A DNA stretch of 64,000 nucleotides, taken from NCBI GenBank assembly GCA_963792585.1, contig CAWBWI010000001.1, forward strand, positions 1,312,001-1,376,000, read 5' to 3'. This document shows positions 4,924 through 40,814 of the stretch, piece by piece; position 1 is the first letter of the stretch, and every line of letters begins with the position of its first letter. The position numbers were made by a program, and so were the translations under genes. Under the pieces are notes generated by a model. That model ran no database searches, was not told the origin of the DNA, and saw nothing but the letters and a program-made list of their open reading frames with translations. This stretch comes from Candidatus Eiseniibacteriota bacterium. Its GTDB lineage: Bacteria; Eisenbacteria; RBG-16-71-46; CAIMUX01; VGJL01.

Positions 4924-4967
4924 TTGCGCCCAGGAGGATTTGAACCCCCAACCTTCTGATCCGTAGT
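4924..4967. repeat. att core, left copy (displaced 3' half of tRNA-Arg)
   Basis: TTGCGCCCAGGAGGATTTGAACCCCCAACCTTCTGATCCGTAGT identical to 40725-40768. Confidence 0.95.
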
Positions 4968-4976
4968 GAGAAAAGA

Positions 4977-5184
4977 CGCTACCCTACGGAGTCTCCTGGA
5001 ATCTCGACTACCCATCGCAACCTTTCTATTGACCCTGTGTTCACTGGGTCCGAAGCTACCATGCGAAGTCAGGAGGTTTCGGGGGCTGCCAGCATCGAAA
5101 TGCTACCCAGGCGCTACCCAGCGAACCCTCTGACCCAGTCAGGCAGGCGAACCCCGAAACCCGCTACCCAAGATACTGGGTAGC
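4977..5184. repeat. (C)GCTACCC repeats, candidate integrase arm-type sites
   Basis: Copies at 4977, 5102, 5112 and 5162, an inverted copy at 5177, and a matching tandem pair at 40679 and 40691. Confidence 0.65.
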
Positions 5185-5290: not shown

Positions 5291-5653
5291 ATGGCTGAGA
5301 TCATTGACTTCCGCACCGCCGTAGACAAGCTCCATAGCCCAAAGCAAGCGGCACGCCAAAGCGAGCCCGCTAACCCGGGAGCCATATACGTTCCCAAACG
5401 CCCCAATCCCGACACCCCGCGCACGAGGGTAATTCCCGAGGGGCTCATGCGGCACTGGTATATCTGGTGCTTGGCGCATGAGCTGACCGGTGGAGTCGCC
5501 GCAATCGGCAAACAGAGGGTGGGTTATTGCGACACCTCTCGGTGGTTCTGCGAGAGCCTTCAGGACGTGATGCATAAGTTCCCCCCCACGGAGGAGCAGA
5601 AGGATCGGTTCCGCGGATGGTTCAACAGCCCGTTCGTGGAGCCGTCAAAGTGA
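5291..5653 (+). CDS. Hypothetical protein coupled to the integrase
   Basis: GAGGAGG RBS; TGA overlaps the integrase GTG (GTGA). Confidence 0.6.
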   Translation: MAEIIDFRTAVDKLHSPKQAARQSEPANPGAIYVPKRPNPDTPRTRVIPEGLMRHWYIWCLAHELTGGVAAIGKQRVGYCDTSRWFCESLQDVMHKFPPTEEQKDRFRGWFNSPFVEPSK

Positions 5654-6909
5654 AGTTCACCGACCGGCAGGTACTGAACCTGAAATGCCGACCGGAGCGG
5701 TACGAGGTGTGGGAGGCGCGGGGGCTTGGTCTCCGAGTCTCCCCCACCGGCCGCAAGACCTGGATTTTCCTCTACCGATTCCACGGCCGACCCCGCCGCA
5801 TGACCCTCGGCCACTATCCCGATCTATCGGTCGCCGAAGCGCACAAGAAGCACGCGGCCCACCTGGTCGATGTCGAGAAGGGCATCGACCCGGGCGCCGT
5901 CGCTATCGAGACGAAGCGGGAACTCAGGAAAGCCGAGACCATCAAGGACCTGGTCGAGGACTACATCAAGCTCTATGCGAAGCCGAACAAGAGGAGCTGG
6001 CGGGACGACGAATGGATGCTCGAGCGGGAGGTTGTCCCTCTGTGGGGCAATCGCAAGGCGCGAGAAATCACCAGGCGCGACGTGGTCCGGCTGCTCGATG
6101 CGATCGTCGACGGATCCCGGAAGGTCACGGCCCCGACAACTGCGCGCAAGCATAGCCCACGCAAGAAACGAGCCCCGCGGCCGGCCCCGTACCTCGCGAA
6201 TCGGGTCTTCGCCTGTGTGCGTAAGATGTTCGCTTGGGCAGTCTCCAGGGACATGCTCCCCACCTCCCCATGCCTCTACGTCCCCCGGCCGGCGCCGGAA
6301 CGAACCCGAGACCGCGTCCTGACCGAGGAGGAGCTCACGAAGCTCTGGCGAGCCCTCCAAGCCGCTCCCGCAACGGATCGGGTCCACTACGTCGTCCAGC
6401 TCGTCTTGTGCACAGGACAGAGGCCCGGAGAGGTTCTCGGCGCCCGATGGGAGGAGATCGACCAAGAGGCAGGATGGTGGACGATACCCGCGGAGCGAAG
6501 CAAGAACGGCAAGGTTCATCGCGTACCGATCACGCCCCTCGTTGACGAGTTGCTGGAGGCGGCCCGCGCTCTCGACCCTGATAGTCCCTGGGTCGTCCCA
6601 TCGACGCGGGTGGCGAAGAAGAAGTATCCACTCCAGGAGAGTTCCCCCCGCAGGTGGATCGAATGCTTCCGGGCGGCTACGGGCGTCGAGAAGTTTCGGC
6701 CGCATGACCTCAGGAGAACGGCAGCCACGGGCATGACGGAGCTCGGGGTCCCCCGCTTCATCGTGGGCCGGCTCCTCAACCACTCAGAGGGTGGGGACGT
6801 CACTGCGATCTATGACAGAAACCAGTATGACAAGGAGAAGCGGGAAGCCCTCGAGCGATGGTGCGACCGGCTCGGCAATCTGTCGGTCTTTGCGGGGAAT
6901 GCCAAATGA
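5650..6909 (+). CDS. Tyrosine recombinase/integrase (P4-like, with arm-binding domain)
   Basis: GLGLRVSPTGRKTW arm domain; catalytic TGQR, SKNG, HDLRR, LNH, Y residues. Confidence 0.95.
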   Translation: MKFTDRQVLNLKCRPERYEVWEARGLGLRVSPTGRKTWIFLYRFHGRPRRMTLGHYPDLSVAEAHKKHAAHLVDVEKGIDPGAVAIETKRELRKAETIKDLVEDYIKLYAKPNKRSWRDDEWMLEREVVPLWGNRKAREITRRDVVRLLDAIVDGSRKVTAPTTARKHSPRKKRAPRPAPYLANRVFACVRKMFAWAVSRDMLPTSPCLYVPRPAPERTRDRVLTEEELTKLWRALQAAPATDRVHYVVQLVLCTGQRPGEVLGARWEEIDQEAGWWTIPAERSKNGKVHRVPITPLVDELLEAARALDPDSPWVVPSTRVAKKKYPLQESSPRRWIECFRAATGVEKFRPHDLRRTAATGMTELGVPRFIVGRLLNHSEGGDVTAIYDRNQYDKEKREALERWCDRLGNLSVFAGNAK

Positions 6910-9956: not shown

Positions 9957-10610
9957 ATGGAACCACACGGGTCCCCTGATCCTTGGGTCGCGGAGCGCAT
10001 CCAACTCGTTGCGCCAGACGCCTTGAGACCCTACGCGGCCAACCCACGGACCCACAGCGAGGAGCAGGTCGCCCGCATCGCCGCGAGCATCATCGAGCGG
10101 GGCTTCACCAACCCTATCCTGGTTGACAGCGAGGGAGGGGTGATCGCCGGCCACGGTCGACTCCTGGCAGCCAAGAAGCTCGGGCTGGAACACGTCCCGG
10201 TGATCGAGTTGGGCCACCTGAGCCCAGCCCAGAGGCGCGCCCTGGTCATCGCGGACAACAAGCTGGCCCTGGATGCAGGGTGGGATGAGCCGCTCCTGCA
10301 GGCGGAGCTGAGGGCGCTGGAGGCGGACGGCCTGACCCTCGCTTCTGCGGGATTCTCGGATGGGGAGCTGGCAGAGATGGAGGCTCGGCTCTTCGCGCCA
10401 CCCGAGCATGACGGGGACCTCGGCGGGTCACCGGGCCTCGGGACCCCGGTCATCTCCTTCACGATCATCTTCGACGATCAGGAGCAGCAGGACTACTGGT
10501 TCGCCTTCGTCCGCTGGCTCAAGGGCGTGCCCAGCGCCCCGGATGCCACGGTCGCCTCGAGGTTGATCGCCTACCTGCAGGCAGTCTCTGACACGAGGCG
10601 GCAAAGGTGA
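9957..10610 (+). CDS. ParB/Srx N-terminal domain protein, no methylase fusion
   Basis: PYAANPRTH..GFTNPILVD..IAGHGRLLAA..IADNKLA. Confidence 0.9.
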   Translation: MEPHGSPDPWVAERIQLVAPDALRPYAANPRTHSEEQVARIAASIIERGFTNPILVDSEGGVIAGHGRLLAAKKLGLEHVPVIELGHLSPAQRRALVIADNKLALDAGWDEPLLQAELRALEADGLTLASAGFSDGELAEMEARLFAPPEHDGDLGGSPGLGTPVISFTIIFDDQEQQDYWFAFVRWLKGVPSAPDATVASRLIAYLQAVSDTRRQR

Positions 10611-11659
10611 GCCGGCAGAAGGTCTACCTCGAGACGGACGTTCTCACGGAGGCTCGGCGCCGGATGCACCACGTCTACGACATCTTCGACTCCGTGGTCG
10701 TCATGTTCTCAGGCGGGAAGGACTCCCTGGCGACCCTCCATCTGGTCAAGGGCGTTGCCGCGGAGCGCGGAATCGGGACCGTCAACGTGATCTTCAGGGA
10801 CGAGGAGCTGATCCCGGAGTCCGTGATTGACCTCGTGGACTCCTACCGGCAGCTCCCGTGGATCAGGATGCTCTGGTTCGCCGTTCCCCTGCGGTCCAGC
10901 GAGTACGTCCTGGGCGTCGCCAAGGAGTACATCCAGTGGGACCCCGCTCGGCGACACGTTCGGCCCGCGCCCCCGTGGGCGATCCGCCTGCCCGAGGGCG
11001 ACAGGCGGGTGTTCGATCAGTACACGATGGACGAACTCGAGGCGACCTACTTCCGCGGGAAGATCGCATTCGTCACCGGCATCCGAGCGGATGAGTCCCT
11101 TATCCGCTACCGATCCTGTGTGAACAAGCTCAATGAGAACTACATCGTGGCGAGCCTGGCCAGCCGCAACGTCCAGCTGGTCAGGCCGATCTACGACTGG
11201 ACGGAGAATGACGTCTTCAAGTTCTTCATGGACCACGGCGTCACCTACTGCCCTCTGTACGACCATCAGCTCTGGGCCGGCACGGCCCTGAGAGTCAGCA
11301 CGCCTCTGCACTCTGAGGCATCCAAGCGGTTCCACACTCTGAAGCTCTACGCGCCCACCCTCTATGCCCAGGTGATCGACGTCTTCCCGGAGATGCTCAC
11401 CCACGAGCGGTACTACCGGGACCTGGACCGAGCTTCGATCATCGAGCAGTACGGCAAGAGCTTCGATGGGGTGAGGGCGTGGATCTTCGAACACATCGAG
11501 GATGAGAAGGTTCAACGCCAGGCCCTCATGCGTCTGGATCACATCCGCACCGCCGCCCGCCGATCCCCAGGGAGCTACCCGGCCGATTACGTCCTGAAGT
11601 ACATGATGAGCGGAACGTACAAGCGCAACATCCTACCGCTGAGGAAGGAGAAACCATGA
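10607..11659 (+). CDS. PAPS-reductase-fold PP-loop protein, IbrA/YbdN (DUF3440)-like
   Basis: FSGGKDS PP-loop, FRDEE, GIRADES, PIYDW motifs. Confidence 0.85.
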   Translation: MSRQKVYLETDVLTEARRRMHHVYDIFDSVVVMFSGGKDSLATLHLVKGVAAERGIGTVNVIFRDEELIPESVIDLVDSYRQLPWIRMLWFAVPLRSSEYVLGVAKEYIQWDPARRHVRPAPPWAIRLPEGDRRVFDQYTMDELEATYFRGKIAFVTGIRADESLIRYRSCVNKLNENYIVASLASRNVQLVRPIYDWTENDVFKFFMDHGVTYCPLYDHQLWAGTALRVSTPLHSEASKRFHTLKLYAPTLYAQVIDVFPEMLTHERYYRDLDRASIIEQYGKSFDGVRAWIFEHIEDEKVQRQALMRLDHIRTAARRSPGSYPADYVLKYMMSGTYKRNILPLRKEKP

Positions 11660-11874
11660 AAGGCACGCCAAGCCCGGAGGAGCACCCAATGCCGGAGCCA
11701 CTGCTGACCGTGGGCTATATCGCGCGGCTCTTCGGAGTTCCGGTCTCGTGGGTCTACTCGAAAGCGGAGCAGGGCGAGATCCCGAGCTACAAGATCGGCC
11801 GATACCGCCGCTTCGTTCGCGCCGAGATTGAGGCCTGGTTGGAGACGCAGAAGCAAGGAGGGGTCCGAGAATGA
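11656..11874 (+). CDS. HTH_17 excisionase-like DNA-binding protein
   Basis: LLTVGYIARLFGVPVSWVY..GEIPSYKIG..RF..EIEAWLE; ATGA overlaps at both ends. Confidence 0.85.
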   Translation: MKGTPSPEEHPMPEPLLTVGYIARLFGVPVSWVYSKAEQGEIPSYKIGRYRRFVRAEIEAWLETQKQGGVRE

Positions 11875-12440
11875 AGAGCTCACCTCCCGAACTCTGCCAG
11901 AGCGATGACGGCACATCGAGCGAGTGCCCCGATCCCATCAATCGGGTCCGCTGGAGACCGGCCGGCGAGCTTGACGCCAACTTCTGGAACCCAAATGTCG
12001 TCTTCAACCCCGAGCTGCGCCTTCTCGAGCAGAACATCCTGAGGCATGGCTGGATCCAACCCATCCTCGTGAACCCCAACGGCATCATCATCGACGGCTT
12101 CCACCGCTGGCGCCTGAGCCTGGAGAGCAAGGCCCTGCAGGAGCGCTACCACGGGATGGTCCCGTGCGTGGTCCTCGAGATGACGGACGGAGACGCCATG
12201 CTCCTGACCGTCCGGATGAACCGGGCGCGTGGCACCCACGTCGCCGGCAGAATGGCGACCCTCGTCCAGCGGCTCCTCGATGAACATCACTACGCGCCCG
12301 AGCAGATCGCGGCGGAGATCGGCGCGACCGCCGATGAAGTCGCGCTGCTTTCACAGAAGAACGTGTTCAAGGCTCGCAACCTCCCGGCCTACCGATACAG
12401 CAAGGCATGGGTCCCAACGGAAGATGGGAAACGCTCCTGA
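11871..12440 (+). CDS. ParB-like protein, IbrB/YbdM-like
   Basis: ANFWNPNVV, GWIQPILV, IIDGFHR, TVRMNRARGTH. Confidence 0.85.
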   Translation: MKSSPPELCQSDDGTSSECPDPINRVRWRPAGELDANFWNPNVVFNPELRLLEQNILRHGWIQPILVNPNGIIIDGFHRWRLSLESKALQERYHGMVPCVVLEMTDGDAMLLTVRMNRARGTHVAGRMATLVQRLLDEHHYAPEQIAAEIGATADEVALLSQKNVFKARNLPAYRYSKAWVPTEDGKRS

Positions 12441-12609
12441 ACTCCGCGCTCTGATTGGCGCATGTGAAGGTGCTCTTGAACTGCAGGATTCACAATACAT
12501 TCAGGACGCGCGCAGAATCCTGAACTCTGCACTCATCATGGAAACAAAGATGGCGAATGACGTTGCACTCCCGACTCAGCGTCCGAGACTTATAGCAAGG
12601 AGGTGCAGC

Positions 12610-12939
12610 ATGCACACTGACACGATGCAGTTGCAGTTGACGAGTGAGAGCGCGGTTGACCGATTCGGACTGGCCTTCGCCGAGGCCTGCATGAAGGCGA
12701 CCGTCGATGAGGCACTCCGGCGCGGGTGGACCGGCGAGCGGTTGAGAGCAGAGGCGGAGCGGTTCTGTGACGTGATCCGCGAGGAGGCGGTCATTGAAGT
12801 GAAGTGGGTTGCTGACCAGGGGCGTGAGGTTCTCGACCTGGTGGACGCGGGCAGGATGGGCCCCGGGTACCTGGACATCACCTTCAAGGCCGGCGTCGCC
12901 GCAGTGGTAGCCAGGTCCATGAAGCGGATGGAGGCCTAA
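12610..12939 (+). CDS. Hypothetical protein
   Basis: AGGAGG RBS before ATG 12610. Confidence 0.6.
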   Translation: MHTDTMQLQLTSESAVDRFGLAFAEACMKATVDEALRRGWTGERLRAEAERFCDVIREEAVIEVKWVADQGREVLDLVDAGRMGPGYLDITFKAGVAAVVARSMKRMEA

Positions 12940-12942
12940 CCG

Positions 12943-13188
12943 ATGAGGGCCTGCGAAGTGTTCGAGATTGAGCAGGACGAGCGCCCGACGGGACGCTACG
13001 CCTGCGGCGAGGCCTTCAATGCGAGTAGGCGCTGGCTGCGCCGCGTGGAGAGGGAAGGGCGCAGAGTCCGCCGTTACACGCTTGACGCGGCTTTTGACGC
13101 GATCCCCGAAGGCACCGAGTTGTGGGCCTTCCCTAACGGTGGAGGCTGGTCCCTGTGGGCGGTGGTGAAGCCAAGGCGGGAGAGCTGA
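12943..13188 (+). CDS. Hypothetical protein
   Basis: Tightly packed in the operon. Confidence 0.5.
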   Translation: MRACEVFEIEQDERPTGRYACGEAFNASRRWLRRVEREGRRVRRYTLDAAFDAIPEGTELWAFPNGGGWSLWAVVKPRRES

Positions 13189-13189
13189 G

Positions 13190-13855
13190 ATGGCGTCCGG
13201 AATGTTCACCTACTGGCTCGAAGGACGGGACAACCCGGCCGATCCGTGGAGGCGGTTGAAGAGCGCAGAGTTCCAAGCCCGTGGCGACTCCAGGGCTCTG
13301 CAGCTGTTCCGGACAGCGAAGCGGAGGCCGACCTACCGACTCTGGAAGCTGCGGTTGATGTGCGATGAGGGGAACGGGTTGAGCGGGCAGGTGGGGTCCG
13401 AAGTGACACGGGCGACATACCGGAAGGAGGTTCCAGTGGAAGACCCGGGAGCGGTCAAGCTCCAAGCAGTGGACTACGAGGCGGCCAGCAAATACAAATC
13501 CGCGGCTGCCAGGGAGCACGTGAGCATCTCAGAGACGCAACGCACTTACTGGTTCTATGTGGTCAAGGGAGATGAGGGAGTGGTCGGCGTTGTGGGTTTG
13601 ATGCTGGTGTCCGGGGGCGCAGTGAGGATCAAGGGGGTCTACATACAGAAGGAGTTCCGAGGTCAGGGGATCGGGACCGCGGTGACGGACGCACTTGAGA
13701 CACACGCGGTCAATGAACTCCATGCAACGACGATCGAGGCCTACGCCTACAACCGGGCCTTCTACGAGGGGCGCAGCTACGAGGCGGTCGGAACGCGGCC
13801 GAACGGTGCGGTGCTGCTGCGCAAGAGGTGCAACGCATCCGCGGAGGCGAAGTGA
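13190..13855 (+). CDS. GNAT-family acetyltransferase (possible internal start GTG 13436)
   Basis: VYIQKEFRGQGIG acetyl-CoA motif A, AFYE motif B; AAGGAGG before 13436. Confidence 0.8.
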   Translation: MASGMFTYWLEGRDNPADPWRRLKSAEFQARGDSRALQLFRTAKRRPTYRLWKLRLMCDEGNGLSGQVGSEVTRATYRKEVPVEDPGAVKLQAVDYEAASKYKSAAAREHVSISETQRTYWFYVVKGDEGVVGVVGLMLVSGGAVRIKGVYIQKEFRGQGIGTAVTDALETHAVNELHATTIEAYAYNRAFYEGRSYEAVGTRPNGAVLLRKRCNASAEAK

Positions 13856-14160
13856 ACCTGCTACTCAAGACCTGGGGGCACGAGATTGCACCCCTGGATC
13901 CTGATTCGGACATTCGATGCACGGGGGTTCAACCGAAGAAGGGCGAGCCGCGGTGCTCCGCGCGTGCGGTCTACCGCGCATGGGCGTGTTACGTGACCGG
14001 TCCGCGAGGACGCCACGGGCGGCGATCCATGAACTACTGCCCCGAGTGCGTCACGAAGTGGGCGCGCTGGATGGAGATTGATCCACCAGTCGTGAAGATG
14101 GACGAGATTGAAACCGAGGACCTGACGGTCACGGTGAACGGAGAGGAGGCACCCTTTTGA
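13852..14160 (+). CDS. Cys-rich hypothetical protein
   Basis: GTGA overlap with the GNAT gene; YCPEC motif. Confidence 0.55.
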   Translation: MNLLLKTWGHEIAPLDPDSDIRCTGVQPKKGEPRCSARAVYRAWACYVTGPRGRHGRRSMNYCPECVTKWARWMEIDPPVVKMDEIETEDLTVTVNGEEAPF

Positions 14161-14903
14161 GCACGCGGCGTGAGCGATTAGAGCGTAGGGCGGAGCGGCG
14201 CCGGCAGTGGGCGGGGCGCGCGAGCCACAAGTCCGCGGCTGGATTCGAGAGCGCCCGGAGGATCGCCGACGCGATCCCCTTCGGGCAACCGATCCTAGTT
14301 GGGCACCATTCGGAGCGGCACGCGCGCCGGGACCAGGAGCGGATCGAGAACGGAATGCGCAAGGGGTGCGAGATGGCCACGAAGGCTAAGGACCACCTTT
14401 CGAAGGCGGACGGGATCGAGGCGGCGCTCGAGCGGGCGGTCTTCGATGACGATCCGGACGCGATTGAGCGCCTCGAGGAACGCATCGCGAAACTGACCGC
14501 GAAGCGGGACCTGATGAAGGCCGCGAACGCATGGTGGAAGAAGCATGCAACGATGGCCGGGTTCGAAGGCGTCACACCGGAGCGGGCGGCCCGGATGGAT
14601 GACGACATCCGAGCATCCTGGGACAAGCGGCCCTGGCCTCCCTACTCCCTGACGAACATCGGCGCGCGCATCCGGACGGATCAGAAGCGAATCGAACAGG
14701 TGAGGGCGCGCCAGGCACGTCTTGAGAAGGCGGAGGAGGCCGGCGTCTTGGTCGAAGATGCCGGCGAGGGCTACGTCCGCGTGACGTTCCCGGAGTTCCC
14801 CGGCCGCGAGATCATCCAGGGGCTTAAGGCTGCGGGGTTCTGGTGGAGCAATCCAAGCTGGGCCGGAAAGGCTGAGAACCTTCCGGAAGGGGTGAGGCCA
14901 TGA
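14157..14903 (+). CDS. DUF3560 domain protein
   Basis: IPFGQPILVGHHSE..ARRD signature, DDPDAIE.L, LK..GFWW. Confidence 0.85.
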   Translation: MSTRRERLERRAERRRQWAGRASHKSAAGFESARRIADAIPFGQPILVGHHSERHARRDQERIENGMRKGCEMATKAKDHLSKADGIEAALERAVFDDDPDAIERLEERIAKLTAKRDLMKAANAWWKKHATMAGFEGVTPERAARMDDDIRASWDKRPWPPYSLTNIGARIRTDQKRIEQVRARQARLEKAEEAGVLVEDAGEGYVRVTFPEFPGREIIQGLKAAGFWWSNPSWAGKAENLPEGVRP

Positions 14904-15205
14904 CGACTCCCGAACAGCTCGAACGGTTCCGCGCGCTCCTCGAGCAGGAGCAGAACGAGAAACTCGCGAGGGATTACCCGGGTGTCGGCCCCTACATCGC
15001 GGAGGTAAAGCTCGGCTCCAAGTTCGCGAAAGTGGACATCGGGCCACCGAGCAACATGAGCGGCCGCTACATGGTCGAGCTCGGAACAGGCGACATCTAC
15101 GGGATCAAGGGCTACGGCGTGGTCCACCGCGGGCACAGGTACGGGAACATCCAACACGTCGAGCAATGGGACTGGAGCGGCTACACCGGATGGAGGCGCC
15201 CTTGA
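14900..15205 (+). CDS. Phage-type hypothetical protein
   Basis: ATGA overlap; KFAKVDIG..GRYMV..GDIYGIKGYG. Confidence 0.65.
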   Translation: MTTPEQLERFRALLEQEQNEKLARDYPGVGPYIAEVKLGSKFAKVDIGPPSNMSGRYMVELGTGDIYGIKGYGVVHRGHRYGNIQHVEQWDWSGYTGWRRP

Positions 15206-15636
15206 AGCCCTATAACGGCTTCACACCGGAGCAGAGGCTGAAGGCGCTCTACTGGCTGCGCAAGCAGCAGAAGGATGGTCTGAGAGCACGGCCGGTGATC
15301 TGCGATGTCTGTGGACAGACTCAAGGTACGATCGATGACCACTCAGAGGACTACAGCGAACCGTTCGGCGACAACATCGGACGCTTCGGGCTCTGCTTCC
15401 GCTGCCACATGATCGTCCACTGCCGATTTCGATCCCCGGAATCCTTTGAGACCTACAGGCGACTGATCATGACGGGCATCCGATTCGCACCGGTATATGG
15501 CAGGAACTTCAAAGTGATTGTAGGCGAGCACCTCGACAACCAACTGACCCCGACGTTCACGACGCATGCGCCCCCGGACACGGACCTCCTGGAGAGAATC
15601 GCCGCCGGCGAGTTCGGACCGAAAACGGGAGACTGA
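15202..15636 (+). CDS. HNH-like Zn-finger protein upstream of the terminase
   Basis: CDVC..HSEDY..LCFRCH..H; TTGA overlap. Confidence 0.55.
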   Translation: MKPYNGFTPEQRLKALYWLRKQQKDGLRARPVICDVCGQTQGTIDDHSEDYSEPFGDNIGRFGLCFRCHMIVHCRFRSPESFETYRRLIMTGIRFAPVYGRNFKVIVGEHLDNQLTPTFTTHAPPDTDLLERIAAGEFGPKTGD

Positions 15637-15640
15637 GCGC

Positions 15641-16147
15641 GTGGCCAGAGAGCTGGTAAACCAGGCTGAGTACGCTCGCCGGCGAGGAGTGAGCCGGCAG
15701 GCCGTCTCCAAGGCTATCCGGAGCGGGCGCATCAAGCTGGTACGCGGCAAGATCGACACCACGCTGGCGGACGCTCAATGGCGCGCCAATACGGACCCGG
15801 CGCCCGAGTTCGGGGTCAAAGACGTCGATGAGGGACCCAAGGCGAAGGAGGGGCTCCCTCCGTCGAGCTTGAGCTACACCACGAGCCGGGCGATTCGGGA
15901 GGCTTACAGCGCTCGCCTCACCCGCCTTGAGTATGAGGAAAAGGTCGGGGAGCTGATCAGCGCGGACAAAGTCAGGCTCCAGGCTTTCAACTCCGCGCGA
16001 AGGGCGCGGGACCTGCTCCTCGCGATCCCGGACCGGGTGGCCCCGATCGTTGCCGGGATCCCCGATCAACTTGAGTGCCACCGCATCCTGCTTCAGGAAA
16101 TCCACCGCGTCTGCGATGAGTTGAGCAATGCCCCCCCCAGAGATTGA
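15641..16147 (+). CDS. Terminase small subunit (Nu1-like HTH)
   Basis: QAEYARRRGVSRQAVSKAI..GELI..RDLLLAIPDRVA; overlaps the large subunit. Confidence 0.8.
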   Translation: MARELVNQAEYARRRGVSRQAVSKAIRSGRIKLVRGKIDTTLADAQWRANTDPAPEFGVKDVDEGPKAKEGLPPSSLSYTTSRAIREAYSARLTRLEYEEKVGELISADKVRLQAFNSARRARDLLLAIPDRVAPIVAGIPDQLECHRILLQEIHRVCDELSNAPPRD

Positions 16148-17984
16148 GGTCTACGAATCCGCATTCGCCGAAGGGTGGGCAGCGGAGCCCATCCTCACGG
16201 TCAGCGAATGGGCGGACGCCCACCGGATGCTCTCCTCGAAGGCCAGCTCGGAGGCGGGACACTGGAGGACGGACCGGACCCCGTACCTCCGGGAGATCAT
16301 GGACAGCCTGAGCGCCGTCGATCCCGTCCAACGGGTGGTCTTCATGAAGGGCTCCCAGCTCGGAGCCACGGAATGCGGGAACAACTGGATCGGCTACATC
16401 GTCCACCATGCTCCCGGCCCGGCGCTCATGGTCCAACCGACCGTGGAGATCGCCCGCAGGGTGAGCAAGCAGCGCCTCGCGCCCATGATTGAGGCGACCG
16501 CGGTGCTCAGTAAGCGGGTTTCGGAGCCGAGGTCCAGGGACTCAGGGAATACGACCTTCGTCAAGGAGTTCCCAGGAGGTCTGCTGATCCTCACCGGATC
16601 CAACTCTGGCGCCGGCCTACGGTCCATGCCGATCCGCTACCTGTTCTGCGATGAGATCGATGAGTACCCCGGCGATGTCGACGGCCAGGGGGATCCGATC
16701 AGTCTCGCGGAGAAGAGGACCGCGACCTTCGCTCGGCGGAAGGTGTTCCTTGTGAGCACCCCGACGATCATGGACTTCTCCCGCATCGAGCGGGAGTTCA
16801 AGCGCTCTGACCAGCGTCGGTACTACGTTCCCTGCCCCGGGTGCGGGAACTTCGACTGGATCCGCTGGGAGAACGTCCACTGGCAGGAGGGTGAGCCGGA
16901 GACGGTCACGCTCGCATGCGTCGCGTGCGGGGAGCTGGTCTCGGAGGGTCAGAAGACGGAGATGCTCGCTCGAGGGGAGTGGCGACCGACCGCGGGTGGC
17001 GACGGCCGGACCCGAGGCTACCACCTGAGCGGTCTCTACTCTCCCGTCGGCTGGAACTCATGGGAGGCGATCGTCCGGGAGTTCATCTCCGCCAAGCAGG
17101 ACCCGTTCAAGCTCAAGACCTGGATCAACACGATCCTCGGGGAGACCTGGGAGGAGAGAGGCGAGACGGTCAATGACTCCGTGCTCTTCGCCCGCCGGGA
17201 GGAGTATCCCGCGGAGGCCCCAGCCGGCGCCCTCGTCCTGACTGCCGGCGTGGACATCCAGGATGACCGGATCGAGCTGGAGGTCGTCGGCTGGGGGCCC
17301 GGCGAGGAGAGTTGGGCAATTGACTACCGCGTCCTTTATGGCAGCCCGGGCGAGCAGCCGGTGTGGACGGCGCTATCGGACTTCTTCGAGCAGACCTACG
17401 AGAACGAGGCCGGGGAGAGGGTGCGTGTCTCCGCTGCCTGCATTGACTCCGGCGGTCACCATACTCAGAACGTCTATCACTTCTGCCGGAGCCGGCGGGC
17501 CCGGCGGATCTTCGCGATCAAGGGAGTGTCCGGTGTCGGTCGCCCCGTCGTCTCCTCTCCGATGCATCGCAGGAGCGGTCGCAACCGGCGCCCCGTGGAG
17601 CTGTTCATGGTCGGCGTGGATGAGGCAAAGGGTCTGATCTACTCCCGCCTGAGGCTCAAGGAGCCCGGCCCAGGCTACTGCCACTTCCCCATCCGGAAGG
17701 AATTCGACGAGGAGTACTTCGCCCAGCTGGCGGCCGAGAAGATCATGACCCGATATCACAAGGGGTTCCCACGGCGCGAGTGGGTCAAGACCCGTCCACG
17801 GAACGAGGCTCTGGATTGCCGGGTCTACGCTCTTGCAGCATTGGAGCTATTGAATCCTGTATGGCCGGCGCTTGTGAGGCGAGCGGCGGAGCGGGCGGCA
17901 GCAAGATTAGGCCCGCCGAAGCCGGCGGCAACGAGGGAGCCGCTCCGGCGGTCGCAGAGAAGGAACTGGGTCAACTCGTGGTAG
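16128..17984 (+). CDS. Terminase large subunit, lambda GpA family
   Basis: RTPYLREIMD, KGSQLGATE, DEIDEY, STPT, AGVDIQ, CIDSGG, RNEALDC. Confidence 0.95.
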   Translation: MPPPEIEVYESAFAEGWAAEPILTVSEWADAHRMLSSKASSEAGHWRTDRTPYLREIMDSLSAVDPVQRVVFMKGSQLGATECGNNWIGYIVHHAPGPALMVQPTVEIARRVSKQRLAPMIEATAVLSKRVSEPRSRDSGNTTFVKEFPGGLLILTGSNSGAGLRSMPIRYLFCDEIDEYPGDVDGQGDPISLAEKRTATFARRKVFLVSTPTIMDFSRIEREFKRSDQRRYYVPCPGCGNFDWIRWENVHWQEGEPETVTLACVACGELVSEGQKTEMLARGEWRPTAGGDGRTRGYHLSGLYSPVGWNSWEAIVREFISAKQDPFKLKTWINTILGETWEERGETVNDSVLFARREEYPAEAPAGALVLTAGVDIQDDRIELEVVGWGPGEESWAIDYRVLYGSPGEQPVWTALSDFFEQTYENEAGERVRVSAACIDSGGHHTQNVYHFCRSRRARRIFAIKGVSGVGRPVVSSPMHRRSGRNRRPVELFMVGVDEAKGLIYSRLRLKEPGPGYCHFPIRKEFDEEYFAQLAAEKIMTRYHKGFPRREWVKTRPRNEALDCRVYALAALELLNPVWPALVRRAAERAAARLGPPKPAATREPLRRSQRRNWVNSW

Positions 17985-18057: not shown

Positions 18058-19704
18058 TTACGGTACACGCAGGTAGTGTCCGCGAATCGAACGGACCGCG
18101 GAGATTGCCTCTTGAAGAAGCTGGACCATGATTCCCGACTTTCGCCTGGAATCGACTCCGAATTTCGCGACAGCTTTCCCGTATCCGGCGCCCTTCCGGT
18201 GACCGGACCCTGTCGACCGCAAGTGCTGAAGGTCGCGAAGGAATCGAACCACCCCCTCATCCTCGTCGAATCCTGTGGATACGAAAAAGACCCTGAGCTT
18301 CTCAATCCCCTTAGCTTCCGCTGAGATCTCGCCCGCGCGCGCTTCTATTTCCTTTTCGTTCAGATAATCGATCAGTAGCTTCGTGAGACACAGCACTTGC
18401 TCATCCAACTCCGCCTGCGAATTCGTCACAGGTATCCTCAGCGTATTGAGCAGGTGCGCGTCACCGGGCGATAGTGGCAGAAACAGAGGCCAACCATATT
18501 GTCTCTCCCAGTCAGCTACCAGACACTCGTATTCCTCTCTGAATACGAGGTCCGGTGATTGCGCATCCGTGGGCTCAGCCATGAAGCTCCGCTGGAAGTT
18601 CGTCCGGCTGATGCCGCTTCTAGGTGGGATGTTGAATGAGCGCCAGTGAAGCCGTTCCTCGTACGGCAGGTCCCGTCCGAGATCACCGAGAAACACAACA
18701 ACGTGTGATTCCAGATCGTTGTCTATTTGACAACTCCAGAGGCCAAGACACTCCAGGCTTCCGTCTAAGACTGTATATCGCTCAGGCTCAGCGAAGTACT
18801 TCCCGAGGACCTCACGGCGAAAGTAGACCGGTGTCAGGTAGTTGGCCGCGCCGGGCTTGCCACCGAAGTAGTCGCCGAGTGCTTCGGGATCCGATGTGTG
18901 CTCGACTGCTTCACCGTTCGAATCAACACCTACAATGAACGAAACTGAAGGGCCGCCTGTATCCTCATCGAACGGTGCCACGCCCGCCCGTTCGCGGGGG
19001 GGCGGTTTGAGAATGACCTTGCCAAGTATTCGTGAGAGAGTCACATAGTCTTCCCGAAGGTCACAAGCTTCTACAGTGCGCCTCCATCTTGACGAACTGC
19101 CGCGCTCAACATGCCTTCGGTCGGCCTCCGGAACCTGATCAATAGGGATCCTCGACCACCGAACGGAGTCGATGTAGATTGCGAGGTGCAACGCTGAGCC
19201 TGCCTGAAACTGATGGATGTACCTCGTCTGTGCCCGCACCTCTGTAGCGCCAAGCTGCGCGACATCGATTTCACGGCCCGAGGAGTCAAACGCGAGCAAG
19301 AGACCGCGGGGCCTGTCCTCCGCCAAGTTGTGATACAGTCGGAATTCCTCGGCAAGTTCGCAGTACTGCGGAAACGCTCCGTGAAACGAGCGGCAGAGAA
19401 CGAGGGGTCTGACCCCATCTGACTCACCAAATCGGTGATAGGTCGTGGCCTCTTGGCCGCCGCACGAGGTCTGGATGAAGCCCGGTCTTCCCTCCCCAAT
19501 CCGCAGATCCCAGCCTTCATCGTCGAGGGCGCGCTCGGCAGCATCTCCGTCCAAGAGAGCACACCAAACTCCGAATCGACTTGATCCGTCTTCTCGACTC
19601 ACGTAGAGGGTCTGCCACTGTTCCCTGCCAATAGACCCAAGTAGCTCGCCCATGATGTCGAGTTGGAGAAGGAATGCAATGCTATCAGTCGCCGGTTTGT
19701 CCAT
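18058..19704 (-). CDS. 548-aa protein with a C-terminal HEPN-like Rx5H motif, putative defence RNase
   Basis: LRSTGSGHRK in a helical C-terminal region; YLTPVYF..LGDLG..LP..HW core. Confidence 0.6.
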   Translation of the reverse strand: MDKPATDSIAFLLQLDIMGELLGSIGREQWQTLYVSREDGSSRFGVWCALLDGDAAERALDDEGWDLRIGEGRPGFIQTSCGGQEATTYHRFGESDGVRPLVLCRSFHGAFPQYCELAEEFRLYHNLAEDRPRGLLLAFDSSGREIDVAQLGATEVRAQTRYIHQFQAGSALHLAIYIDSVRWSRIPIDQVPEADRRHVERGSSSRWRRTVEACDLREDYVTLSRILGKVILKPPPRERAGVAPFDEDTGGPSVSFIVGVDSNGEAVEHTSDPEALGDYFGGKPGAANYLTPVYFRREVLGKYFAEPERYTVLDGSLECLGLWSCQIDNDLESHVVVFLGDLGRDLPYEERLHWRSFNIPPRSGISRTNFQRSFMAEPTDAQSPDLVFREEYECLVADWERQYGWPLFLPLSPGDAHLLNTLRIPVTNSQAELDEQVLCLTKLLIDYLNEKEIEARAGEISAEAKGIEKLRVFFVSTGFDEDEGVVRFLRDLQHLRSTGSGHRKGAGYGKAVAKFGVDSRRKSGIMVQLLQEAISAVRSIRGHYLRVP

Positions 19705-20614: not shown

Positions 20615-21541
20615 TCAGGGTCCCGGTTCGAGGCGGACCTTGGCCAAGTCTTCCTCAAGATGGAGGAGGTAGCGTCCGGTTACAGCCGGGAAGTTCTCAG
20701 AGCTCACGACGTACGTGAGCTCGAAGTCACCAGGACCTTCGAATCGCGGCGCATAGGCGCCCGAGTCCGTGAAGAGGCTGAACTGCGGGACGAGCGACGC
20801 TTGGTGAGGAATCCAGACCGCGTCGAATTGCCGGTCCATGGCCGGGCGGATGACCGCTGTCGGTTCCACGTATCCCGCCCACTTCGTCTCGACGATCCGA
20901 AGCGGGATGTCGTCTCCATCGGGCAGACGTCGAATCCGGTCGAGGTAGACGTAGCAACCGAGGGCCGGGCGCCACCGGTTGAGGTTTGCGACCCGGACAT
21001 GGAAGAACCGGCCGGTCCCCCGGGCCCCGACCTGGGCGTCTGTGTACTCGGCAGGGTCACGCTCCATCCGCAGCACGTTCTTCCAATTCGGTTTCCACTG
21101 CGGGGCGGCTAGGATCGACTTCCGGATCAGATCGACGAGCACGGCTCGATTCGAGAACTCCACGGGGTTCGCCTGGATCGCCTGCATCATGCCGTCGAGC
21201 TTCAGGGCACCGCCTTCCCGGAAGCAAAGCGCATCGAGCTCGAGAAACGACGCGAGAGCGAGTTCCTGATGGCAGAACAGCGAGCCGCGACAGCGCTCGT
21301 CGCCGGCAGAGCTGACCTCCTCCCGGCAGAAATCCACGAAGAGAAAGTACTCGGAGGTCCGCAGGTGCTCGAAGATGTTCTCCCGCAGGCCGAGGAGACT
21401 GTGCTGTTCGACGGCGACGTATGCGTCGTAGTGCAACTTGTCGACGAGCAGCCGCTCGATTTCTCGCGCGATGACCCGCTCCTCGTCGTCCTTCTGGCCG
21501 CAGCTCACAAAGACCTTGGCCTGAGGTGCTGTCCCATCCAT
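20615..21541 (-). CDS. TIR-like/nucleotide-hydrolase domain + beta-rich C-terminal domain
   Basis: KVFVSCGQ...SEYFLFVD...SLFCHQELALA with a catalytic-position Glu. Confidence 0.65.
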   Translation of the reverse strand: MDGTAPQAKVFVSCGQKDDEERVIAREIERLLVDKLHYDAYVAVEQHSLLGLRENIFEHLRTSEYFLFVDFCREEVSSAGDERCRGSLFCHQELALASFLELDALCFREGGALKLDGMMQAIQANPVEFSNRAVLVDLIRKSILAAPQWKPNWKNVLRMERDPAEYTDAQVGARGTGRFFHVRVANLNRWRPALGCYVYLDRIRRLPDGDDIPLRIVETKWAGYVEPTAVIRPAMDRQFDAVWIPHQASLVPQFSLFTDSGAYAPRFEGPGDFELTYVVSSENFPAVTGRYLLHLEEDLAKVRLEPGP

Positions 21542-21705
21542 CGTGATCGGACCCTCCAGATCGCTGGGGCCTTCCTCCGCAGTTGGGAGCCGTGCCGATT
21601 GGCCCCCACTTCAGCTGGGCGCAGTGTACCATGGCCTCCGGTCGGCAAAGGCGTTGCCCGCCGACCAGGTTCCCCGACCAGATCGCAGAGCATGGAGAGC
21701 GGAAC

Positions 21706-22161
21706 ATGCGTCACGCGACGACGGAGTCGCGGCAGGCCGTCGCTCGAGCGCGTTTCTTTCTCGATGGGGCGAAGACCTGTTCCGGTGATGCCCACGTGGA
21801 GTTCGAAGCCTACATTGAGGCCGCGATCATCTTCTCCCGAGCGGCGCTCCATCGTACTCACACGAAGTACCGGCACCACCCTGGGTGTCCGAATTGGTGG
21901 CACTCACTCGCCGGCAACCCCGCGGTGAAGTTCTTCCGGAACGAGCGCGATTGGATCCTGAAGGAGGCGCCACCGAAGATCAGGCAGATCGTGTTTCTGG
22001 CCGGCGCTGGAAGTTCGGATCCGCCGTACCAGCCGGGGCGCGCGACCGAGCATTACTTCTTCGAGACGGGTGTCCCAGCCATCGTCACGGTCGAGCGACA
22101 TCTCACCACCCTCGAGCAGCTGATCCGGGACGCAGATGGGCGCTTCGCCTCTGTCCCTTGA
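21706..22161 (+). CDS. Small helical hypothetical protein, possibly HEPN-like
   Basis: GGAG RBS; ARFFL..AAIIFSR..FFRNERDWILK pattern. Confidence 0.55.
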   Translation: MRHATTESRQAVARARFFLDGAKTCSGDAHVEFEAYIEAAIIFSRAALHRTHTKYRHHPGCPNWWHSLAGNPAVKFFRNERDWILKEAPPKIRQIVFLAGAGSSDPPYQPGRATEHYFFETGVPAIVTVERHLTTLEQLIRDADGRFASVP

Positions 22162-25949: not shown

Positions 25950-28900
25950 TCACGAAGCCAACACCTGCACGAACTCCGCGACAACAGCGATCTCGTTCTT
26001 GTCCACGTTTTGGAGAACGAGCGGCTCGAATCGCGCGTCCGTGCTGTCTGGCTTCAGGCGGATGATGCCGTGCCGCCATCCGCCGTCCGGCGAGGCCACC
26101 TTCTCGCTCTCGTAGACCTTGACCGTGTAGTGACCTCCATGCTCCGGATCTGCAATGTCGCGGTGTTGGACCAGGAGAACCCGTCCCTGCCGGCTGCCGG
26201 CGACAGGCTGGCGGAAGATGCAGTAGGACCCGTTTGGGATTCGTCGGTTCATCGACTTTCCGACAAGTTGCGCCACGAACATGCCATCGGCGATTCTGCG
26301 GTCCGTTACTTCGAGCCACCCAAGCTCCTCAGGCACTTGGCCCTCACTGAATGCGCCGGCGGCAGCCCTGAGGTCATACACGGGAAGATGACGGACGAAC
26401 GGTTCGGCCGCCTGGCGAGGAACCAGGCGAAGAACCGGAGCCACGCGCAGAAGGTCCGAGCGGTCAAGACGCTCTGCCAAGTCCCGAAGACCCTGCTCAA
26501 TCCGTTCAGGCCAGAGGATCACCACGCGGTAGCCAAGCGCACGCAGACGTCGCTCCAGTTCATCGTCGCGACGCTGCACGTGCTCCTGGTGATGTGGGCT
26601 TCCGTGCACCCAGACCACGATTCGGTTCGGGTACAACAGGTCCGCCTCCGTGACAGCGATCCCCTCACCATCACGCACCACGCAGTGTTGCCCAGCGGGT
26701 TTCGGAAACCCACGCCGCTCGAGGTCCTCGATCACACCAGGCTCGGCTCCAATGGCGTTCGCCTTGAGCTCTTCCCAGCCGAGCTCCACATCCTCTCCCG
26801 TCAAGTCCAGATCTGATTCGAGCAGCCTCTGCAGCACCTCGACCACGCCCCGCCGATCGAGAAGATCGTGGTATCCCTGGTTATAGTATGAGAGCAGACA
26901 GTCGTAGCAGGCCCTCTCGCATGCGCCCTCGAGTTCCCGCCCCGATTCGGGGTCCACGTGGAGGAGCTCCAGCGCCCGACGCGCGGTGCGCCGCCACCCT
27001 TCCGCCTCCCATAGATTCCGTAGTAGACCCGTGCCACCTTCGTCTGTCTCGTAGAACAGAACGCGCTTCCGAGATCCCTCGCCCGGAACGTCGAAGAGGT
27101 GGGCTCCGAGCTCCGAGTCCTCCGCACCATACGCGATCTGGAATCCTCCGAGCAGCGCATATGCGAGCGACCAGCCAAACCGCTCGCCGTCATTGGGGGG
27201 GACGGGCAGCTCAAGGGTCACGAGATCGTGGACGCCGTGGACGTAGAGGAGCACTTCCCGGTGGATGTCTTCCTCGGTGCCGCCAGCCGGACACCGGTTG
27301 CGGCCGTTCTCATCCACGTGGGCCTCTTCACCCCCCTCGCTGGCAATCCATGCCCTGCAACGCTCGCAGTAGCGGAAACCGATCTTCGTCCGAGGCGCGG
27401 AGTCGCGATTGACGAGCAGCAGCTCTCCTTGGTGCGATCCCGTGACGGCTCCGAGTACGCCACTTACTTTCGCTCAAGAGTGATCCCTGCTGGGTCACCG
27501 GTCCGAGCCGGTAGTAGGGTCGGACATCGAAACCACGCCGCATCCGCTCTTCTTCATCCGCAGAAATGCGCCCCGACCGCCGAGCCACGGCATCCGGCAG
27601 CTCGAGCACGCGGTCCCGGGCGTGGGCGGCGAGCAGATTCGGCCGCAGATGTTGCAGGCCGCCGCCTGGTTGACCTGATCGCCCAGGAAGAAGTTGCCGC
27701 ACTCGCAGGTCTTGAGGCGGCTCCAGTGATGGGCCTGGCCGCGCGCCCGCGGCTGCGCCTTAGCAACCCGGTACCGCCCTCCGCGGAAGTAGATCATGTT
27801 GAGCGGCGCGAACTCGCGCAGCGCGATGGCCCGGGCTCGAGGCTTCGACTCTTTGCGGTCGGTGAAGTATGCGTTCGAAGCCCGGCGCGGGAATGCGTAG
27901 TTTGGCAGGAAACCCCGTGAGCCCAGGTAGCGGTAGGGATAGAAGTCCCCGTGCCCTTCGCGCATGTCGGCGAGCCGGGCGCTGACCGCCCGCTGCCGAA
28001 TCTCATCCTCGCGCGTGACGCCCGCGTGAGCTTGCCGGGCATGAATCTCGCGGAGCTCCTCCTGAAGGCGCCGATACTCCTCGCGGAAATCGTCGTGCGC
28101 CCGATCGAACTCCTCAGCAAAGCGATCCACGAGCCGCGCGAGGTCCGCCATGGGCACGCCGGCGCGCTCCAGCTCCTCACCAAAGGCATTCCGCGCCGCC
28201 TCGAGGATCGTCGGTCCCGCGCTCGCCACCTTGCGTGACAACTCCTCACCAAAGCTGTCGAACATCGGCAGCCCTGCGATGACATCGGCTTCGTTCTCCA
28301 TCCGCAAGTATTCGCGGCTCTTGCGAGGCAACCGGAGATCGGCGATCTCGAGCACCAGCGCGTTCACGTGTGCCTCGAGCAGCGATCGGTTGTCGAGGAG
28401 GAAACGCGGCGGGGCGATGCGTCCGGAGATCACGCGATCGGGAAAGCGGAAGAAGTACTGGTCGTGTCGACTATAGGGCCCGAAGGTGCCGCAGAAGGTA
28501 ACGATAATCGCGGGCTGGCCGTGGCGACCCGCCCGACCGTGTCGCTGAGCGTAGTTCGCCGGCGAGGGCGGGACGTTGCGTAGAAACACCGCCGAGAGGC
28601 CGCCGATGTCGACTCCGAGCTCCATGGTCGGCGTACAGACGAGGACGTTTAGAGGATCATCCGGCTTCTGGAAGCCGGTCTCGTACTTTCGCCGGTCGTC
28701 GCCTGATACCGCCGCGGAGTGCTCCTGAGCCAGGACTCGGGGTCGAGCCTCCGGCGGGAGGGTGTACTCGGCTCGGAAGAAGTGTGGACCCCATTCCTGC
28801 TCCCGTAGCTCTACCTTGATGCAGTTGGGACACGGTTGTGGGCGAGTCAGCTCCCAGCGCAGACGGCAGCGCGGGCAAACGAGCGCCGTTCGATCTACGC

Positions 28901-40596: not shown

Positions 40597-40725
40597 GCCA
40601 GCAGTGATGAGGTATCGCTTCCTCGTTTGGACAGACCCTCCCGAGTTGGATTTCCACCAACCTTCCGGGTCTCGAATTCGCTACCCCTAGCGCTACCCCG
40701 GAACCATCCGGCCTCTGTAAGTCAT

Positions 40726-40799
<74 letters not shown>

Positions 40800-40814
40800 A
40801 CAAGACCTTAGTCA

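What the first reader, a model, noticed from the sequence alone, without database searches (positions are those of the whole stretch)
9957..13855. ParB - PAPS-reductase-like - HTH - ParB - GNAT cassette between cos and terminase: candidate packaging-linked DNA modification system
Seen: four translationally coupled genes (ParB-N, PP-loop SGGKDS protein, HTH, IbrB-like ParB) with a GNAT about 750 bp downstream. The ParB-N gene lacks the DNA methylase usually fused at this position, and the PP-loop protein shows no CC/CxxC Fe-S motifs. Known: the PAPS-reductase fold is the ATP-using core of DndC/SspD phosphorothioation, ParB-terminase loci often host DNA-modifying enzymes, and Mu Mom is a GNAT-fold DNA modifier. 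To my knowledge IbrAB biochemistry is unresolved. Inference: the cassette replaces the methylase and installs an uncharacterised backbone or base modification that protects element DNA.
Basis: partly seen in the sequence, partly recalled or inferred. Interest (0 to 1): 0.78.

Follow-up and report, generated by a model that had tools for sequence, protein, structure and literature searches.

The report
Phage IbrAB cassette with swappable cap
A phage-derived island carries, in front of its DNA-packaging genes, a widespread five-gene set (two ParB-like proteins, a predicted ATP-using enzyme, a small zinc-finger protein, and an acetyltransferase-fold gene that relatives swap for a methyltransferase-fold gene) that likely attaches a still unknown chemical group to DNA and likely caps it afterwards.

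Summary
The genes, overlaps and motifs are real, but the unit is drawn wrongly. The HTH gene has no relative in 150 related loci.

Among 68 dereplicated loci: ParB-N 66, IbrB-like 67, zinc finger 58, this GNAT family 33, a dedicated SAM-methyltransferase family 24, both together 0 (11.6 expected). The two swap at least 10 times on the tree, once between enzymes 98% identical. None of 80 control terminase loci has either. The PP-loop protein is a sister of IbrA/YbdN (30% identity, no DUF3440, no invariant cysteine); its modelled fold is closest to phosphate/sulfate adenylyltransferases.

Best reading (0.42): ATP-driven activation of a DNA phosphate, attachment of a probably amine-bearing group, then acetyl or methyl capping. 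No chemistry is shown. Against blanket protection: carrier phages still avoid palindromes. This copy is interrupted and lies in a 35.8-kb tRNA-Arg island without detected portal genes. The scan noted this module before on other DNA (eight notes); ten paper searches found no biochemical study.

The parts
4924..4971 (-). Left att repeat: duplicated 3' end of tRNA-Arg(ACG)
   Evidence: 48 bp, 1 mismatch to 40725-40772; ARAGORN calls tRNA-Arg at 4925-5003 and 40725-40800
5617..6909 (+). Tyrosine integrase of the island (context)
   Evidence: PF00589, PF13356
9822..9866 (+). cos-like stretch starting GGGTCCT (motif name recalled; function inferred)
   Evidence: Motif enriched upstream of control ParB-N genes at gpA loci, 12 of 37
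9957..10610 (+). Stand-alone ParB-N protein, core gene
   Evidence: PF02195; phrog_15396/498/620; 66 of 68 loci; 0 of 90 cassette copies fused to a methylase
10607..11659 (+). IbrA-like PP-loop enzyme, predicted adenylyltransferase, core gene
   Evidence: phrog_2302 E 1e-108; 30% identity over 267 columns to a phage IbrA; AF2 model pLDDT 85.5, best fold matches FAD synthase Z 17.6, CysD Z 15.9
11656..11874 (+). Excisionase-type HTH gene; coupled here but a local insertion
   Evidence: PF12728; 0 of 150 loci
11871..12440 (+). IbrB-like ParB/Srx-fold protein (NPN...DGFHR), core gene
   Evidence: phrog_2159 E 6.5e-67; 33% identity to a phage IbrB; 67 of 68 loci
12538..13188 (+). Two orphan ORFs (12538-12939, 12943-13188) interrupting the cassette
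   Evidence: No Pfam, NCBIfam, PHROG or PADLOC hit; 0 of 150 loci
13436..13855 (+). Cassette-specific GNAT (longest ORF from 13190); fills the slot that a SAM-methyltransferase fills in other loci
   Evidence: PF00583/PF13673; alignment A5; 33 GNAT, 24 MTase, 0 both of 68
13828..15205 (+). Three inserted ORFs (13828-14160, DUF3560 14157-14903, 14900-15205); not core
   Evidence: PF12083; 0, 2 and 0 of 150 loci
15202..15636 (+).
   Evidence: 58 of 68 loci; alignment A2; AF2 pLDDT 96, best fold match Gme HNH nickase 4h9d Z 4.6, rmsd 3.5, 83 aligned; phrog_2340 endonuclease E 8e-4
15641..17984 (+). terS (about 15641-16147) and lambda gpA-type terL (16128-17984)
   Evidence: phrog_57; PF05876, PF20454
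40725..40772 (-). Right att repeat in the intact tRNA-Arg(ACG)

Best explanation
The genes form a conserved five-part phage module (ParB-N, IbrA-like PP-loop protein, IbrB-like ParB, either a GNAT or a methyltransferase, and an HNH-like zinc finger) that likely modifies the element's DNA: the PP-loop enzyme is predicted to adenylylate a DNA phosphate, a probably amine-bearing group would displace the AMP, and the GNAT or methyltransferase would then cap that group. Shown: gene content, order, co-occurrence and exclusivity. Predicted from a model: the PP-loop fold is nearest to enzymes that adenylylate or bind adenylylated phosphate/sulfate. Inferred: DNA is the target; the ParB-fold proteins load or gate the enzyme, as DndB and DpdB accompany their modifiers; the acceptor is an amine, because acetyl-CoA and SAM enzymes can replace each other on it; the zinc finger nicks or binds DNA and works with the capping enzyme. 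Unknown: the nucleophile, the motif, and whether this interrupted copy is active.
For: (1) Dedicated partners: 39 of 43 methyltransferase-anchored loci hold the PP-loop gene and 0 hold the GNAT; 59 of 75 zinc-finger-anchored loci hold it, many misses being short contigs, with GNAT 33, MTase 30, both 0; control terminase loci: PP-loop 1, GNAT 0, MTase 0 of 80. (2) Exclusivity: 0 of 68 loci have both, 11.6 expected (kin not independent); 18 changes on the tree, at least 10 forced by starred branches; L001 (MTase) and L003 (GNAT) have PP-loop proteins 97.7% identical. (3) The capping gene and the zinc finger stay within 200 bp in 45 of 53 loci across eight gene orders and are fused in L098. (4) The module occupies the ParB-methylase slot and lies near terminase-like genes of at least three types in 53 of 61 loci. 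[quoted passage not shown] (6) 2OG-Fe(II)/TauD oxygenase genes are inserted inside the cassette in six loci, plus single ATP-grasp, SET and MazG genes, as expected of a tailoring pathway.
Against: No experiment or structure shows DNA binding or modification. Carrier phages avoid palindromes more than control loci (mean log2 O/E -0.91 in 53 loci vs -0.18 in 38; GC>=50%: -0.49 in 23 vs -0.18 in 38, p=0.011; controls are largely one related clade), so a dense protective modification is unlikely. No shared enriched 4-mer. The nearest folds act on small molecules, and the methyltransferase's weak hits are small-molecule and protein enzymes. No gene supplying a nucleophile is conserved. 11 of 68 loci lack both capping genes and B3 mycobacteriophages have only the three-gene core. 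Chromosomal ybdNM of E. coli is regulated with citrate lyase genes (PMC9068703, passages), which does not suggest DNA modification. This copy is split by six unrelated ORFs.
Confidence: 0.42

Rival explanations
1. The module makes or consumes a small molecule (a nucleotide-linked cofactor or signal, for example for counter-defence): the IbrB-like protein phosphorylates or binds it, the PP-loop enzyme adenylylates it as FAD synthase does FMN, and the GNAT or methyltransferase finishes it.
For: Best fold matches are FAD synthase and ATP sulfurylase; MTase and GNAT profile hits are small-molecule enzymes; SerK and Srx use the ParB fold as an ATP-binding enzyme module (PMC12704722, passages); palindrome avoidance persists; oxygenase insertions fit.
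Against: Does not explain the HNH-like zinc finger, the ParB-methylase slot beside terminases or the HTH-like region of the IbrB-like protein that aligns with canonical ParB.
Confidence: 0.2
2. Two sub-modules: a regulatory IbrAB-like pair that switches on phage genes, and a GNAT/methyltransferase plus HNH pair in which the transferase modifies a protein lysine (the nuclease or a host protein) rather than DNA.
For: Acetylation and methylation are both common lysine modifications (established knowledge); capping gene and zinc finger are associated (53/5/4/6, Fisher p=0.0007) and adjacent; the zinc finger is on the opposite strand in 9 of 67 loci; IbrA/IbrB are annotated 'co-activator of prophage gene expression'.
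Against: The transferase and zinc-finger families are almost never found without the PP-loop pair where the contig allows, which a self-contained pair would not require.
Confidence: 0.18
3. A phage-borne phosphorothioation system (DndC/TdpC-like) that takes sulfur from a host cysteine desulfurase.
For: Same Pfam family as DndC/SspD/BrxP; C215 is Cys in 81 of 89 aligned relatives; suggested for another prophage PAPS-reductase-like gene in PMC8092301 (passages).
Against: DndC model scores 20.6 bits against a cut-off of 290; no invariant Cys, CC or CxxC; C215 is replaced in 8 of 89 and is Asn in a phage IbrA; no P-loop ATPase in the cassette, which PMC12914056 (passages) says is required; it leaves the GNAT/MTase unexplained.
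Confidence: 0.1
4. An auxiliary sulfur-assimilation gene (CysH-like PAPS reductase), as phage annotations and PMC6145125 assume for such genes.
For: PF01507 over its cut-off; database names.
Against: All CysH/APS-reductase NCBIfam models are far below cut-off (19-27 bits vs 154-254); no conserved catalytic or Fe-S cysteines; the neighbours are ParB, HNH-like and terminase genes, not sulfur genes.
Confidence: 0.03

Closest known systems
IbrA/IbrB of E. coli and phages (K-12 YbdN/YbdM, PAPS_reduct + DUF3440 with ParB-like partner)
   Same: PP-loop protein 30% and ParB protein 33% identical to a phage IbrA/IbrB pair; same adjacency; nearest Atlas clusters are PAPS_reduct/DUF3440 proteins.
   Different: No DUF3440 hit; homology ends near residue 258; separate subfamily phrog_2302 with FRDEE motif; adds ParB-N, GNAT or MTase and zinc finger, which 10 of 10 distant IbrA-like loci lack apart from ParB-N. 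No biochemical function found for either.
Dnd, Ssp, BREX type 4 and Tdp phosphorothioation systems (DndC, SspD, BrxP, TdpC)
   Same: PAPS-reductase-type PP-loop core with a ParB-fold partner (DndB) and, in Ssp, a nickase (PMC12914056, PMC10853773, passages).
   Different: No conserved cysteines, desulfurase or P-loop ATPase; has acetyl/methyl transferases; phage-borne beside terminase.
ParB-N/DNA-methylase fusions at phage terminase loci
   Same: Same ParB-N family and same position after a cos-like motif; the fusion is noted in PMC12704722 (passages).
   Different: ParB-N stands alone in 90 of 90 cassette copies; the cassette's methyltransferase is not a DPPY-type DNA methylase.
Two-step phage base hypermodification (thymidine and 7-deazaguanine pathways with acetyl, methyl or formyl capping; Mu Mom)
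   Same: Logic of an installed amine finished by alternative transferases (recalled, from no call).
   Different: None of their base-supplying or transglycosylase genes appears among conserved neighbours; no Mom-family hit for the GNAT.

Membership tests
IbrA/YbdN with IbrB/YbdM | N-terminal PAPS_reduct PP-loop domain | tested here: met
   PF01507 53.8 bits, cut-off 22.5; 30% identity to phage IbrA
IbrA/YbdN with IbrB/YbdM | C-terminal DUF3440 domain | tested here: not met
   No DUF3440 hit at E<=0.05; none precomputed in 120 listed homologues; BLAST match stops at residue 258
IbrA/YbdN with IbrB/YbdM | Adjacent IbrB-type ParB gene | tested here: met
   33% identity, E 3e-22; 67 of 68 loci
IbrA/YbdN with IbrB/YbdM | Co-activation of prophage gene expression | not testable with these tools
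   Annotation only; original paper not held
DndC/SspD/BrxP phosphorothioation | DndC-family score and conserved cysteines | tested here: not met
   TIGR03183 20.6 vs 290.4 bits; no invariant Cys, CC or CxxC
DndC/SspD/BrxP phosphorothioation | Adjacent P-loop ATPase (DndD, SspC, BrxC) | tested here: not met
   None among cassette ORFs or among conserved neighbour clusters other than terminases
DndC/SspD/BrxP phosphorothioation | Phosphorothioate dinucleotides in DNA | not testable with these tools
   Needs LC-MS or iodine cleavage
CysH PAPS/APS reductase | Family score and catalytic/Fe-S cysteine motifs (motifs recalled) | tested here: not met
   19-27 bits vs cut-offs 154-254; only C171 and C215
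HNH (His-Me finger) nucleases | CxxC...H...CxxCH zinc-bound fold | tested here: inconclusive
   Motif invariant in 68 sequences; best fold match 4h9d only Z 4.6; Foldseek no hit at E<=0.001; no Pfam HNH hit; nearest named Atlas cluster HNH at 0.90
HNH (His-Me finger) nucleases | DNA nicking or cleavage | not testable with these tools
   Needs an assay
Mu Mom-type GNAT DNA modifier | Sequence relationship to Mom | tested here: inconclusive
   Only generic acetyltransferase families matched; no direct comparison with Mom and no model of the GNAT
DNA N6/N4 amino-methyltransferases (for the relatives' MTase) | DPPY-type catalytic motif and N6_N4_Mtase domain | tested here: not met
   Invariant columns lack it; no N6_N4_Mtase Pfam hit in 5 members scanned

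The most novel reading that the evidence does not exclude
A sulfur-free DNA backbone modification: the IbrA-like enzyme adenylylates phosphates in DNA (at an internal phosphodiester or at a nick made by the zinc finger), an amine such as a polyamine or amino acid displaces AMP to give a phosphoramidate, and phages diversify the mark by swapping an acetyl cap for a methyl cap to escape modification-dependent nucleases. It would be the second natural backbone chemistry after phosphorothioate and would explain IbrAB/YbdNM.
Probability: 0.13. Interest if true: 0.92.

Novelty: new variant of a known kind. Interest (0 to 1): 0.56.

Why it matters
Phage 'PAPS reductase' genes are often read as sulfur-metabolism helpers, and IbrA/IbrB have no biochemical function in the papers found. 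This subfamily has 1574 relatives at E<=1e-10 and is in cultured, harmless phage-host pairs that form a natural series: core only (B3 mycobacteriophages), core plus methyltransferase (Arthrobacter Laroye-like phages, B. subtilis 035JT001) and core plus GNAT and zinc finger (this window). Comparing their virion DNA would show directly whether there is a modification and what the cap adds. A new DNA chemistry would matter for phage counter-defence, phage sequencing and DNA-labelling enzymes.

Tried and rejected
GATC as target: B3 mycobacteriophages carry the core and have an unexplained fourfold GATC/GGATCC excess (PMC4841201, passages; reproduced for L147, 4.6-fold). Across 74 cassette loci GATC is among the most depleted 4-mers and an Arthrobacter carrier has 0.54-fold, so it is rejected as a family-wide target. 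ACGA/CTAC excess was not convincingly above controls. HTH as a cassette member: rejected. Complex prediction for the IbrA-like and IbrB-like proteins: tool not available, no result. Reciprocal locus search with the GNAT alignment could not be run; tblastn of the GNAT against 50,697 phage records found nothing. Single-sequence locus search with the zinc finger found nothing; a closer alignment worked. The careful tree did not finish; the quick tree is used. PDB sequence search gave no close relative. Residues 242-350 of the PP-loop model were barely tested by the fold search. No earlier notes by place or by zinc-finger sequence. Iyer et al. 2013 and Sandt et al. 2002 were not held, so I could not check whether the first already lists this module; no supplements were read.


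Full report
**Observation.** The four coupled genes are in the sequence as described: ParB-N 9957-10610, PP-loop protein 10607-11659, HTH 11656-11874 and IbrB-like ParB 11871-12440, with GTGA/ATGA/ATGA overlaps and ribosome-binding-like sites. Pfam, PHROG and NCBIfam agree on the folds. The GNAT ORF begins 749 bp later, but two orphan ORFs fill the gap and the part shared with relatives starts near GTG 13436. The PP-loop protein has two cysteines and no CC or CxxC. At 80 control loci fetched with the window's gpA terminase, 33 of 37 ParB-N genes are fused to a DPPY methylase; 0 of 90 cassette ParB-N genes are. A GGGTCCT motif at 9822 resembles the stretch upstream of control ParB-N genes (12 of 37; about 0.08 expected per 450 bp). 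That it is a cos site is inference, and the motif's name is recalled.

**Setting.** The cassette lies in an island of about 35.8 kb (4924-40772) bounded by a 48-bp repeat of the 3' end of tRNA-Arg(ACG). It holds an integrase, AlpA, an AAA_25 helicase-like gene, the cassette, terS and terL, and then a DrmD-like SNF2, DrmMI-like methylase and DruE-like helicase cluster. No head or tail family other than the terminase subunits matched the island ORFs that I scanned. Two portal families were not found in the 84%-complete genome. It is therefore a satellite-like island or a truncated prophage. The PP-loop gene was not found in 30 related genomes searched.

**The real unit.** I fetched 10 + 80 viral loci (the second call kept the best 80 of 235) and 56 genome loci, plus four annotated phage regions. 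116 scored as close family and collapsed to 91 representatives at 90% identity, including the window. Leaving out the window and 22 loci with too little flank gave 68: ParB-N 66, IbrB-like 67, zinc finger 58, GNAT 33, methyltransferase 24, both 0, neither 11, all five parts 51. The profiles were built from these loci, so unrelated GNATs or methylases would be missed. The HTH and four of the five other inserted ORFs have no hit in 150 loci; DUF3560 has two. Reciprocal searches agree: of 43 methyltransferase-anchored loci, 39 hold the PP-loop gene, 42 the IbrB-like gene and none the GNAT; of 75 zinc-finger-anchored loci, 59 hold the PP-loop gene, 33 GNAT, 30 MTase, none both (these sets overlap the first set). 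Controls: 1 of 80 terminase loci holds the PP-loop gene (a contig already in the set), none either transferase. All 20 cultured-phage records with the methyltransferase belong to phage groups that carry the PP-loop gene. Ten more distant IbrA-like loci have neither transferase nor zinc finger.

**The swap.** With 33 and 24 of 68, 11.6 double carriers are expected and none is seen (Fisher 3e-10, overstated because kin are not independent). On a quick IQ-TREE tree of 74 PP-loop proteins (loci with neither gene left out; two near-duplicates added on purpose) the label needs 18 changes, at least 10 forced by starred branches, against 23 for shuffled labels. L001 and L003 (97.7% identical) and L013 and L011 (90%) differ in the transferase. 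Transferase and zinc finger lie within 200 bp in 45 of 53 loci across eight orders and are fused in L098. The simplest reading is that two unrelated enzymes compete for one acceptor group. An amine is the likeliest acceptor for both acetyl-CoA and SAM enzymes; that step is inference from established chemistry.

**The enzymes.** The AF2 model of the PP-loop protein (pLDDT 85.5) matches FAD synthase (Z 17.6, rmsd 3.2, 169 aligned), ATP sulfurylase CysD (15.9) and (P)APS reductases (13.7-14.6) ahead of TilS, TtuA, ThiI and MnmA (6.6-13.2). This places it among enzymes that adenylylate an oxyanion, the group that holds DndC, SspD and BrxP (PMC12914056, PMC10853773, PMC12839542; passages seen). No cysteine is invariant; C215 is kept in 81 of 89. 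It is 30% identical to a phage IbrA over residues 13-258 and lacks DUF3440. The IbrB-like protein aligns with ParB/Noc through the HTH region and has an invariant NPN and DGxxR. The zinc finger models well (pLDDT 96) and its best, weak fold match is an HNH nickase (Z 4.6). The relatives' methyltransferase has a class I SAM motif but no DNA-methylase motif. Six loci insert 2OG-Fe(II) or TauD oxygenases within the cassette.

**Results against the reading.** Carrier phages avoid palindromes at least as strongly as controls, and many have almost no GATC, so the module does not free them from restriction pressure; a sparse mark or a non-DNA target fits better. The B3 GATC excess (PMC4841201) is not shared. 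Packaging linkage is frequent (53 of 61 loci hit one of five large-protein clusters; three clusters have Pfam terminase hits, one is annotated terminase, one is unconfirmed) but not obligatory (L338C). No conserved gene supplies a nucleophile. The window's copy is interrupted by six ORFs and has no expression data.

**Comparison and novelty.** It works like a Dnd/Tdp-type activation step followed by a hypermodification-type capping step, but it fails the membership tests for DndC, CysH and DUF3440-bearing IbrA. Ten full-text searches found only annotations and guesses: virulence (PMC4541368), sulfur metabolism (PMC6145125), DndC-like (PMC8092301), phylogeny (PMC8813620) and regulation of ybdNM (PMC9068703); all seen as passages only. 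The ParB survey PMC12704722 does not mention IbrB, YbdM or PAPS in its main text; its datasets were not read and may list these proteins. Iyer et al. 2013 on ParB-terminase loci was not held and may already describe the module. This scan's notes show the module at eight other places, one noting the GNAT/methyltransferase alternation; my reading was recorded before I saw them and the counts are my own.

**Verdict.** Observation partly confirmed, interpretation partly supported. A real, widespread, biochemically unsolved phage module, here in an interrupted GNAT version. New variant of a known kind; interest 0.56; DNA modification with a swappable cap 0.42; sulfur-free backbone chemistry 0.13.

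Noticed in passing
window 25953-38369 (-): Island cargo: DrmD-like SNF2 helicase (35598-38369), DrmMI/type IIG-like N6 methylase (31718-35605), DruE-like DEAD helicase (27495-31748) and an MZB + Peptidase_S24 protein (25950-27317); a DISARM/Druantia-like defence cluster in which the MZB domain is on a separate ORF.
   Followed up: partly
window 4924-40772: 35.8-kb island at tRNA-Arg(ACG) with integrase, AlpA, AAA_25 helicase-like gene, cos-like site and both terminase subunits but no detected portal or capsid: satellite-like element or truncated prophage. The left att reads as a 79-nt tRNA to ARAGORN.
   Followed up: partly
window 18058-19704 (-), 20615-21541 (-), 21583-22161 (+): Three ORFs of 548, 308 and 192 aa right after terL with no Pfam, PADLOC or PHROG hit, in a lower-GC stretch; candidate defence cargo.
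   Followed up: no
L147 (Phaedrus) and B3 mycobacteriophages: Core-only cassette and a published, unexplained GATC/GGATCC excess; not shared by other carriers, but could be the target motif of that lineage.
   Followed up: partly
L055, L059, L067, L112, L072, L076, L071: 2OG-Fe(II)/TauD oxygenases, an ATP-grasp protein, a SET-domain protein and MazG inserted inside the cassette.
   Followed up: partly
L009, L030, L033, L036, L041, L055, L091, L097, L100: The zinc-finger gene is on the opposite strand, converging on the cassette, in 9 of 67 loci.
   Followed up: no
window 13190-13435: The GNAT ORF has an 82-codon N-terminal extension absent from relatives, possibly a small gene fused in frame.
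   Followed up: no
L339:7115-7810 (Rhizobium phage L338C_088): Annotated 'DNA methyltransferase' but it matches the ParB-N profile and not the methyltransferase profile.
   Followed up: partly
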